This document shows, piece by piece, positions 25,836-27,419 of a stretch of 64,000 bases of DNA (the stretch's first letter is position 1; each line of letters begins with the position of its first letter). Location of the stretch: NCBI RefSeq assembly GCF_046105845.1, contig NZ_CP151004.1. One strand, given 5' to 3'. Origin of the DNA: Escherichia coli. Lineage in GTDB: Bacteria; Pseudomonadota; Gammaproteobacteria; Enterobacterales; Enterobacteriaceae. The position numbers were made by a program.

Positions 25836-27419
25836 CTATTAATTGGCTGATCGGACTTGTTCGGCGTACAAGTGTACGCTATTGTGCATTCGAAACTTAC
25901 TCTATGTGCGACTTACAGAGGTATTGAATGAAACGTGCAGTGATTACTGGCCTGGGCATTGTTTCCAGCATCGGTAATAACCAGCAGGAAGTCCTGGCAT
26001 CTCTGCGTGAAGGACGTTCAGGGATCACTTTCTCTCAGGAGCTGAAGGATTCCGGCATGCGTAGCCACGTCTGGGGCAACGTAAAACTGGATACCACTGG
26101 CCTCATTGACCGCAAAGTTGTGCGCTTTATGAGCGACGCATCCATTTATGCATTCCTTTCTATGGAGCAGGCAATTGCAGATGCTGGCCTCTCCCCGGAA
26201 GCTTACCAGAATAACCCGCGCGTTGGCCTGATTGCAGGTTCTGGCGGCGGTTCCCCGCGTTTCCAGGTCTTCGGCGCTGACGCAATGCGCGGCCCGCGCG
26301 GCCTGAAAGCGGTTGGCCCGTATGTGGTCACCAAAGCGATGGCATCTGGCGTTTCTGCCTGCCTCGCCACGCCGTTTAAAATTCACGGCGTTAACTACTC
26401 CATCAGCTCCGCGTGTGCGACTTCCGCACACTGTATCGGTAACGCAGTAGAGCAGATCCAACTGGGCAAACAGGACATAGTGTTTGCTGGCGGCGGCGAA
26501 GAGCTGTGCTGGGAAATGGCTTGCGAATTCGACGCGATGGGTGCGCTGTCTACCAAATACAACGACACCCCGGAAAAAGCCTCCCGTACTTATGACGCTC
26601 ACCGTGACGGTTTCGTTATCGCTGGCGGCGGCGGTATGGTGGTGGTCGAAGAACTGGAACACGCGTTGGCACGTGGTGCTCATATCTACGCTGAAATCGT
26701 TGGCTACGGCGCAACGTCTGATGGCGCAGACATGGTTGCTCCGTCTGGCGAAGGCGCAGTGCGTTGCATGAAGATGGCGATGCACGGTGTTGATACCCCA
26801 ATCGACTACCTGAACTCCCACGGTACTTCGACTCCGGTTGGCGACGTGAAAGAGCTGGCGGCTATCCGTGAAGTGTTCGGCGATAAGAGCCCGGCGATTT
26901 CTGCAACCAAAGCAATGACCGGTCACTCTCTGGGCGCTGCTGGCGTACAGGAAGCTATCTACTCTCTGCTGATGCTGGAACACGGCTTTATCGCCCCGAG
27001 CATCAACATTGAAGAGCTGGACGAACAGGCTGCGGGTCTGAACATCGTGACCGAAACGACCGATCGCGAACTGACCACCGTGATGTCTAACAGCTTCGGC
27101 TTCGGCGGCACCAACGCCACGCTGGTAATGCGTAAGCTGAAAGATTAATTCGCAGTAAGTCGGAGTAGGTCGGATAAAACGCGCCAGCGTCGCATCCGAC
27201 GTTACGCGCTAATGCGGCCTCCGGCACTAACACAAAAGGGAACCCGATGGTTCCCTTTTTCACATCATTGACAATCGCCGCCTGTTCCAGGCAAACTTCC
27301 CGCTTTGTCGATTTCCTTCTGAAAAGACGTACGCGTTAATTCCTGCCAACGCACCGTAACCCTGAAACCAGAGAGATGAGACGGGGATACTCCTCGCCTT
27401 GCGCTGCATTCTGGAGTAA

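What the first reader, a model, noticed from the sequence alone, without database searches (positions are those of the whole stretch)
25845..25880. Adjacent FadR-like and FabR-like sites upstream of fabB
A FadR-like site (GGCTGATCGGACTTGTTC) sits immediately beside an almost perfect palindrome (GGCGTACAAGTGTACGCT). This matches the known dual control of fabB, activation by FadR and repression by FabR, and is an easily recognised regulatory module.
Basis: partly seen in the sequence, partly recalled or inferred. Interest (0 to 1): 0.2.

Follow-up and report, generated by a model that had tools for sequence, protein, structure and literature searches.

The report
Known FadR/FabR operators of fabB
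This is the textbook regulatory region of the E. coli fabB gene, where an activator (FadR) site and a repressor (FabR) site sit side by side on the promoter to tune unsaturated fatty acid synthesis; it is real, strongly conserved and already well described.

Summary
GGCTGATCGGACTTGTTC is at 25845-25862 and GGCGTACAAGTGTACGCT at 25863-25880, 48-83 nt upstream of an ORF that is fabB. The window is E. coli chromosome.

The 36 bp are identical to K-12 and sit inside published gel-shift probes in which they are marked as the FadR site and the FabR palindrome.

With the published transcription start (37 nt upstream of the ATG, window 25891):
- the FadR operator spans -46..-30 and covers a weak -35 (TTGTTC);
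- the FabR palindrome spans -28..-11, filling the 17-nt spacer and touching the -10 (TATTGT).

New evidence here:
- The module is 100% identical in 5425 of 5426 complete E. coli genomes.
- It occurs exactly twice per genome; the other copy is at fabA, 30/36 identical.
- In 64 Enterobacterales species, 61 keep both sites and 60 keep the same spacing. Flanks are about 55% conserved, against 100% (FadR core) and 94% (FabR).
- Alteromonadales keep only the FabR site. Vibrionales show neither.

Caveats: the palindrome is 7/9, not nearly perfect. Neither palindromicity nor the FadR consensus match is above chance by itself. The primary footprint papers could not be read.

Verdict: interpretation supported; already known; low interest.

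The parts
25845..25861 (+). FadR (GntR-family) 17-bp operator GGCTGATCGGACTTGTT, at -46..-30 relative to the published fabB transcription start
   Evidence: Sequence read. It is 14/17 to the consensus. A PWM built from six other published FadR operators ranks it 3rd of 127,968 positions. It is 15/17 identical to the fabA operator. The core CTGATCGGACTTGTT is invariant in 57 distinct Enterobacterales sequences. It lies inside a probe shifted by FadR (PMC4259882, PMC4537474).
25857..25862 (+). -35 hexamer TTGTTC (3/6 to TTGACA), embedded in the 3' end of the FadR operator
   Evidence: Inferred from the published start site (PMC7083825), a 17-nt spacer and the -10 hexamer. The simple promoter scan missed it because the -35 is weak, as expected for an activator-dependent promoter.
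25863..25880 (.). FabR (TetR-family) 18-bp palindrome GGCGTACAAGTGTACGCT, at -28..-11
   Evidence: Sequence read. It is the only match in the window to the published FabR motif, against 0.04 expected. It is marked as the FabR palindrome in PMC4537474 Table 2. It is 94% conserved across Enterobacterales and is also present in 11/16 Alteromonadales.
25880..25885 (+). -10 hexamer TATTGT, whose first base is the last base of the FabR palindrome
   Evidence: It lies 5 nt upstream of the published start site. T, A and the final T, plus the following GC, are >=90% conserved (TAnnGTGC) in the module-anchored alignment.
25891..25891 (+). fabB transcription start (+/-1 nt)
   Evidence: [quoted passage not shown] I validated that paper's numbering with its CpxR box: -112..-98 maps to 25816-25830.
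25816..25830 (+). CpxR box (third, upstream regulator site); it reads GTCAGgctgcGCAAA here against GTAAGgctgcGCAAA in K-12
   Evidence: PMC7083825 Table 1 and its DNase footprint (-119..-94). The SNP at 25818 was seen.
25918..25921 (+). Shine-Dalgarno GAGG, 6 nt before the ATG
   Evidence: Sequence read. GAGGTATT is conserved across Enterobacterales.
25928..27148 (+). fabB coding sequence (beta-ketoacyl-ACP synthase I), the regulated gene
23763..25769 (-). mnmC, the divergent neighbour (GTG start at 25769 as annotated); not regulated by the module as far as the evidence goes

Best explanation
The 36 bp are the composite operator of the sigma-70 promoter of E. coli fabB.

FadR. A FadR dimer binds the 17-bp operator at -46..-30, which overlaps a poor -35 hexamer (TTGTTC), and helps RNA polymerase use the promoter. 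When exogenous long-chain fatty acids are converted to acyl-CoA, FadR binds them and leaves the DNA, and the activation is lost.

FabR. A FabR dimer binds the 18-bp palindrome at -28..-11, which fills the spacer and touches the -10 hexamer (TATTGT). There it occludes RNA polymerase. FabR occupancy is strengthened by unsaturated acyl-ACP/CoA and weakened by saturated acyl-ACP. fabB output therefore tracks the saturated:unsaturated ratio of the acyl pool as a negative feedback.

The same two-site cassette, with the same spacing, drives fabA. A CpxR box further upstream adds acid and envelope-stress activation.

Shown, by published experiments on this exact sequence or by results here: binding of FadR to the probe, the in vivo effects of fadR and fabR mutants, the start site, and conservation.

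Inferred: the exact -35/-10 assignment; that FabR represses by steric occlusion; that FadR acts like a class-II activator.
For: Identity of the locus:
- E. coli fabB promoter.
- 36/36 identical to K-12.
- Contained in published probes with the sites marked (PMC4259882; PMC4537474, read).

Geometry and binding:
- Transcription start at -37 from the ATG (PMC7083825), which gives the promoter geometry.
- For fabA, FadR is described at about -40 and FabR over the -10 (PMC3462791).
- FabR ligand logic and a 4-fold derepression in the fabR deletion (PMC11525553; PMC3896788).
- In vivo FabR binding to fabB in Salmonella (PMC4804515).

New here:
- The FabR motif is unique in the window.
- The FadR PWM ranks the site 3rd of 127,968 positions, behind the two fadL operators.
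- The module is invariant in 5425/5426 E. coli genomes and present exactly twice per genome, at fabB and fabA.
- fabA and fabB modules are 30/36 identical.
- 61/64 Enterobacterales keep both sites and 60 keep identical spacing. Conservation is 100% (FadR core) and 94% (FabR) against 54-56% in the flanks.
- FadR-site loss with FabR-site retention in Alteromonadales matches published Shewanella data (PMC4537474).
- The module stays with fabB in Photorhabdus, where mnmC is not the divergent neighbour.
Against: - The FadR site is a weak consensus match (TGAT/ACTT instead of TGGT/ACC). It ranks only 18th in the window when the PWM excludes the fabA and fadL operators.
- I could not read the primary DNase footprints.
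- The published FadR effect on fabB is modest (2-2.5-fold), and FabR is reported to be the main regulator of fabB (PMC3896788).
- Whether FadR and FabR occupy the abutting sites together or exclude each other was not established from anything I could read.
Confidence: 0.96

Rival explanations
1. Only the FabR palindrome is a working operator. The FadR-like 17-mer is a chance resemblance or simply the -35/UP region of the promoter.
For: The consensus match is weak: 14/17, with 3 hits in the window against 1.28 expected. The site ranks 18th with the most independent PWM. fabB lacks a FadR site in Shewanella and Vibrio (PMC4537474) and in the Alteromonadales and Vibrionales I sampled. So fabB can be run without it.
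Against: All 15 core bases are invariant in 57 distinct Enterobacterales sequences while the flanks drift. A bare -35 hexamer would not constrain that many bases. The same 16 bases occur at fabA. Published gel shifts with FadR and a 2-2.5-fold drop of fabB-lacZ in a fadR mutant also argue against it (PMC4259882).
Confidence: 0.02
2. The module additionally, or instead, controls the divergent gene mnmC, whose start codon is 76 nt away.
For: The mnmC-fabB divergent arrangement is conserved: 50/54 Enterobacterales, 26/27 Vibrionales and 12/12 Alteromonadales. The mnmC promoter must lie in the same 158-bp region.
Against: Vibrionales keep the divergent pair but not the module. Two Photorhabdus species lack a divergent mnmC within 3 kb yet keep both sites at fabB. 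An identical cassette sits at fabA with a different neighbour. The geometry fits the fabB start site. No paper I read reports mnmC in either regulon.
Confidence: 0.04
3. The inverted repeat that bridges the two sites (ACTTGTTCG/CGTACAAGT, 25855-25873) is the real element: a site for a third factor or a cruciform.
For: the repeat finder reports it as the only inverted repeat of >=8 nt in the intergenic region (8/9 complementary).
Against: It is not present at fabA, where ACTTGT faces ACACGT. It is destroyed in the many Enterobacterales whose FabR centre is ACAACTGT or ACATCTGT. It follows trivially from the two conserved operators lying next to each other.
Confidence: 0.01

Closest known systems
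E. coli K-12 fabB promoter (FadR activator site + FabR repressor palindrome; Campbell & Cronan 2001, Zhang et al. 2002, Feng & Cronan 2011)
   Same: It is the same locus. The module is 36/36 identical, and the 158-bp intergenic region differs at only two positions (25818, 25843), both outside the sites.
   Different: Nothing in the module differs. This strain carries a C at 25818, inside the upstream CpxR box (GTCAG against K-12 GTAAG).
E. coli fabA promoter cassette (AACTGATCGGACTTGTTCAGCGTACACGTGTTAGCT)
   Same: Same order, same abutting spacing, 30/36 identical. The FadR operator lies over about -40 and FabR over the spacer and -10. It is the only other copy in each E. coli genome.
   Different: The fabA FabR site is a poorer palindrome (TGTTAGC arm). 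fabA has additional promoters (PMC7083825). FadR is reported as the dominant regulator at fabA and FabR at fabB (PMC3896788).
FadR repressor operators of the fad regulon (fadL, fadD, fadBA, fadI)
   Same: Same 17-bp pseudo-palindromic operator type and the same protein. Three such sites lie in this window, at fadL and fadI.
   Different: Those have TGGTC/GACC half-sites, lie at or downstream of the promoter, and repress. The fab sites have TGATC/GACTT half-sites, lie at about -40, and activate.
FabR/DesT sites of other Gammaproteobacteria (Shewanella fabA/desA, Pseudomonas fabAB)
   Same: Same TetR-family palindrome type, AGCnTACAnnTGTAnGCT (PMC4273635, PMC3462791). It was found upstream of fabB in 11/16 Alteromonadales sampled here.
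   Different: No adjacent FadR operator at fabB outside Enterobacterales (PMC4537474).

Membership tests
FadR (GntR family) operator | 17-bp pseudo-palindromic sequence matching the operator consensus or PWM | tested here: met
   14/17 to AACTGGTCNGACNTGTT. 17.1 bits, rank 3 of 127,968 with a PWM of six other published operators. Rank 5 without fabA and rank 18 without fabA and fadL. This is a weak but recognisable member of the fab subtype.
FadR (GntR family) operator | For an activating site: position at about -40, overlapping or abutting the -35 | tested here: met
   -46..-30 relative to the published start (PMC7083825). It overlaps TTGTTC at 25857-25862.
FadR (GntR family) operator | Bound by FadR protein; binding released by long-chain acyl-CoA | not testable with these tools
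   Published gel shifts on a probe identical to the window across both operator sites; it carries K-12's A at 25843, two bases upstream of the FadR site (PMC4259882 Fig. 3D; PMC4537474 Fig. 3B). The primary footprint paper is not held.
FadR (GntR family) operator | Evolutionary constraint beyond the neighbouring non-coding DNA | tested here: met
   The 15-nt core is 100% conserved in 57 distinct Enterobacterales sequences against 54-56% in the flanks. It is invariant in 5425/5426 E. coli genomes.
FabR (TetR family) operator | 18-bp palindrome matching the published FabR motif | tested here: met
   15/18 to AGCGTACACGTGTTCGCT (motif from PMC4273635). It is the only match in 64 kb, against 0.04 expected. 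The arms are 7/9 complementary.
FabR (TetR family) operator | Located in the promoters of the unsaturated-fatty-acid genes fabA and fabB, overlapping core promoter elements | tested here: met
   It spans the spacer and the first base of the -10 of fabB. The second genomic copy is upstream of fabA.
FabR (TetR family) operator | Bound by FabR; repression modulated by unsaturated or saturated acyl thioesters | not testable with these tools
   Published: ChIP in Salmonella (PMC4804515), fabR-deletion derepression (PMC11525553) and ligand logic (Zhu 2009, as cited in PMC3896788 and PMC11525553). The primary papers are not held.
Sigma-70 promoter | -35 and -10 hexamers with 16-18 nt spacing, correctly placed before a mapped start | tested here: inconclusive
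   TTGTTC-17 nt-TATTGT ends 5 nt before the published start. The -35 is only 3/6, so the consensus scan did not call it. Conservation of TAnnGT supports the -10. The hexamer assignment is my inference.

The most novel reading that the evidence does not exclude
The zero-gap abutment and fixed register of the two operators are preserved in 60 of 61 Enterobacterales fabB promoters and again at fabA. This might reflect an obligatory physical interplay between FadR and FabR, either direct contact or mutual exclusion that makes the cassette a three-state switch. The alternative is two independent inputs that merely share a promoter. My evidence cannot separate this from the simpler view that each site is pinned in place by the -35 and -10 hexamers. 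Feng & Cronan 2011, which I could not read, may already address it.
Probability: 0.1. Interest if true: 0.3.

Novelty: already known. Interest (0 to 1): 0.05.

Why it matters
The cassette sets the level of FabB, the rate-limiting enzyme for unsaturated fatty acids, and so controls membrane fluidity homeostasis in E. coli. It has been characterised since 2001-2011 and is a standard example of dual control: an activator released by its ligand plus a ligand-tuned repressor. Confirming it here adds nothing new about the biology. The conservation survey gives a tidy taxonomic boundary: both sites in Enterobacterales, and FabR only in Alteromonadales.

Tried and rejected
1. Generic palindrome statistics show that the 18-mer is not unusual as a palindrome. 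Its significance rests on motif identity and conservation, not on symmetry.

2. My first FabR scan used an idealised palindrome close to the site itself, which is partly circular. I repeated it with the motif printed in PMC4273635.

3. The simple sigma-70 scan found no promoter in 25600-26100. This is explained by the 3/6 -35 hexamer.

4. The bridging inverted repeat 25855-25873 was rejected as an independent element. It is absent at fabA and in species with a different FabR centre.

5. Reading the primary papers failed; none of them is held. These were Campbell & Cronan 2001 PMC99677, Feng & Cronan 2011 PMC4072462 and its DOI, Feng & Cronan 2009 PMC2785586, Zhu 2009 PMC2787350 and McCue 2001 PMC30389.

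6. A 3-mismatch scan with the whole fabA 36-mer finds nothing because the two cassettes differ at 6 positions. The comparison was made by direct alignment and BLAST instead.

7. The CTTACAGAG motif shared by the fabA and fabB leaders was checked for conservation. It is restricted to Enterobacteriaceae sensu stricto, so it is probably just context around the Shine-Dalgarno sequence.

Full report
**Where we are.** The window is E. coli chromosome. Positions 25700-26100 match 5425 of 5426 complete E. coli genomes at >=95% identity, and the features under the match are annotated fabB and mnmC. ORF 25928-27148(+) scores 805 bits against the NCBIfam equivalog for beta-ketoacyl-ACP synthase I, whose cut-off is 630. 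The divergent ORF is mnmC, whose annotated GTG start corresponds to window 25769. The finding therefore lies in the 158-bp mnmC-fabB intergenic region, 25770-25927.

**The observation.** Both strings are present at the stated coordinates and abut each other: GGCTGATCGGACTTGTTC at 25845-25862 and GGCGTACAAGTGTACGCT at 25863-25880.

Two details need adjusting.
- The canonical FadR operator is 17 bp, 25845-25861.
- The palindrome is 7 of 9 pairs (perfect arms GCGTACA/TGTACGC around a 2-nt centre), not nearly perfect.

Taken alone, neither feature beats chance.
- The window has 101 18-mers with >=7/9 complementary pairs, against 98.9 expected.
- It has 7 perfect 7-2-7 inverted repeats, against 4.6 expected.
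- The FadR consensus gives 3 hits at <=3 mismatches, against 1.28 expected.

The specific motifs are what count.
- The FabR motif printed in PMC4273635 (AGCGTACACGTGTTCGCT) matches only this site in 64 kb, against 0.04 expected.
- A FadR PWM built from six other published operators ranks the site 3rd of 127,968 positions, behind the two fadL operators that also lie in this window.
- The FadR match is weak when judged most independently: rank 18 when the fabA and fadL operators are left out of the PWM.

**Identity with the published element.** The intergenic region differs from K-12 MG1655 at two positions, 25818 and 25843, and both lie outside the 36-bp module. The published 56-bp fabB gel-shift probe is TCTATTAAATGGCTGATCGGACTTGTTCGGCGTACAAGTGTACGCTATTGTGCATTC. 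It contains the module, with GGCGTACAAGTGTACGCT marked as the FabR palindrome and the preceding bases as the FadR site (PMC4259882; PMC4537474 Table 2).

Those papers and others report the following.
- E. coli FadR shifts this probe.
- fabB-lacZ drops 2-2.5-fold in a fadR mutant.
- FabR binds the fabB promoter in vivo in Salmonella and represses it (PMC4804515).
- A fabR deletion strain has about 4-fold more FabB (PMC11525553).
- FabR repression is strengthened by unsaturated acyl-ACP and relieved by saturated acyl-ACP (PMC11525553; PMC3896788).

[quoted passage not shown] I validated that paper's numbering with its CpxR box: -112..-98 maps to window 25816-25830, where the sequence is found. 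The start is therefore at 25891 (+/-1).

| Element | Window coordinates | Position relative to start |
|---|---|---|
| FadR operator | 25845-25861 | -46..-30 |
| -35 hexamer TTGTTC (3/6 match) | 25857-25862 | -34..-29 |
| FabR palindrome | 25863-25880 | -28..-11 |
| -10 hexamer TATTGT | 25880-25885 | -11..-6 |

The FabR palindrome fills the 17-nt spacer, and its last base is the first base of the -10 hexamer. The hexamer assignment is my inference. The weak -35 explains why the consensus scan called no promoter, and it fits an activator-dependent promoter. The layout matches what is described for fabA: FadR at about -40 and FabR over the -10 (PMC3462791). The CpxR DNase footprint (-119..-94 = 25809-25834) lies upstream and does not overlap the module.

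**New comparative evidence.**

1. Within E. coli, the 38 nt at 25845-25882 are 100% identical in 5425 of 5426 complete genomes. Every genome has exactly two places that match. The second is upstream of fabA, inside the 3' end of ycbZ, at 88.9% identity.

2. The K-12 fabA sequence AACTGATCGGACTTGTTCAGCGTACACGTGTTAGCT is 30/36 identical to the fabB module, with the same register.

3. By contrast, the 54 nt just upstream (25789-25842) are identical to the window in only 1247 genomes.

4. Across species, I fetched fabB loci without reference to the regulatory sequence. I scanned one genome per species with a degenerate pattern for the FabB N-terminus, which gave 120 loci. The results by order are in the table below.

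| Order | Loci | Both sites | FabR site only | Neither |
|---|---|---|---|---|
| Enterobacterales | 64 | 61 (60 with the E. coli spacing) | 2 | 1 |
| Alteromonadales | 16 | 0 | 11 | 5 |
| Vibrionales | 30 | 0 | 1 | 29 |

5. In 57 distinct module-anchored Enterobacterales sequences, the majority-base fraction is 1.00 over the 15-nt FadR core and 0.94 over the FabR 18-mer. It is 0.56 and 0.54 in the 45-nt flanks. TAnnGTGC at the -10 is also conserved.

6. The Alteromonadales pattern agrees with the published conclusion that Shewanella and Vibrio fabB lack a FadR site (PMC4537474).

**Whose operator is it?** mnmC is the divergent neighbour in 50/54 Enterobacterales, 26/27 Vibrionales and 12/12 Alteromonadales. 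Three observations assign the module to fabB rather than mnmC.
- Vibrionales keep the gene pair without the module.
- Two Photorhabdus species lack a divergent mnmC within 3 kb yet keep both sites.
- The same cassette serves fabA, which has a different neighbour.

**Mechanism.**
- FadR, a GntR-family dimer, sits over the weak -35 and activates transcription. Long-chain acyl-CoA removes it from the DNA.
- FabR, a TetR-family dimer, sits in the spacer and -10 and blocks RNA polymerase. Its occupancy reports the unsaturated:saturated acyl-ACP ratio, which gives negative feedback on FabB.
- CpxR adds an upstream stress input.
- Protein binding, the mutant phenotypes and the start site are published. 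Steric occlusion by FabR and class-II-like activation by FadR are inferences from the geometry.
- I could not establish whether the two proteins co-occupy the abutting sites. Their centres are 18.5 bp apart.

**Rivals.**
- A FabR-only reading is contradicted by the invariance of all 15 FadR core bases and by the published FadR gel shifts.
- Control of mnmC is unsupported, for the reasons given above.
- The bridging inverted repeat 25855-25873 is not conserved at fabA or in species with a different FabR centre.

**Limits.** The primary footprint papers are not in the library.

**Verdict.** This is the already known fabB FadR/FabR cassette, of low interest.

Noticed in passing
window 6371-6387(-) and 6395-6411(-): These are the two published FadR operators of fadL (CACTGGTCTGATTTCTA and AGCTGGTCCGACCTATA). 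They are identical to the fadL-FadR1/2 probes of PMC4259882 and lie upstream of the fadL ORF 4945-6291(-). They are the top two FadR PWM hits in the window.
   Followed up: partly
window 7078-7094: A near-palindromic FadR-like site, AAGTGGTCTGACCTGAT (14.8 bits), lies 27 nt upstream of the fadI ATG (7121). It is presumably the fadIJ operator. Together with fabB, the window therefore carries four FadR sites within 20 kb.
   Followed up: partly
window 25816-25830 (SNP at 25818): The CpxR box of the fabB promoter reads GTCAGgctgcGCAAA here, against GTAAGgctgcGCAAA in K-12/BW25113 (PMC7083825). That is one step further from the GTAAA half-site consensus. The window's 54-nt allele (25789-25842) is identical in only 1247 of 5426 complete E. 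coli genomes. Any effect on acid-induced fabB expression is unknown.
   Followed up: partly
window 25912-25920; L124 (K-12 fabA leader): CTTACAGAG occurs just 5' of the Shine-Dalgarno sequence in both the fabB and fabA leaders of E. coli. At fabB it is conserved only within Enterobacteriaceae sensu stricto, so it is probably ribosome-binding-site context rather than a shared element.
   Followed up: partly
Vibrionales loci, e.g. L009, L065, L083, L101 (about -67 from the fabB ATG) and L005, L081, L084 (about -90): Vibrio fabB upstream regions lack the E. coli-type cassette. They do share recurrent motifs, AGCTGACCACTTTTGTT and (G)ATTGTACGG, which could be diverged FadR/FabR-type or other regulator sites.
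   Followed up: no
L004 (Pantoea sp. Brub, stink-bug symbiont); L045 (Rosenbergiella epipactidis); L047 (Pantoea sp. Nvir symbiont): These are the exceptions within Enterobacterales. L004 has lost both sites, L045 keeps only the FabR palindrome, and L047 has a degraded FadR site (2 mismatches). This looks like regulatory erosion in symbiont or reduced genomes.
   Followed up: no
fabB 5'UTRs of Yersinia, Serratia, Proteus, Photorhabdus, Xenorhabdus, Rahnella and Edwardsiella loci (e.g. L002, L042, L040, L056): A conserved GAAATCCCG motif occurs in the fabB leader of Enterobacterales outside the Enterobacteriaceae. E. coli and its close relatives have CGAAACTT instead. Its function is unknown.
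   Followed up: no
H30, NZ_OZ547091.1 (262-kb record) 36884-36919: Four fabA-type copies of the cassette fall on records classed as plasmids, annotated under ycbZ. This may reflect large plasmids or chromids that carry the ycbZ-fabA region, or misassigned replicons.
   Followed up: no
window 25843: T here against A in K-12, two bases upstream of the FadR operator. It is the only other difference from K-12 in the intergenic region.
   Followed up: no
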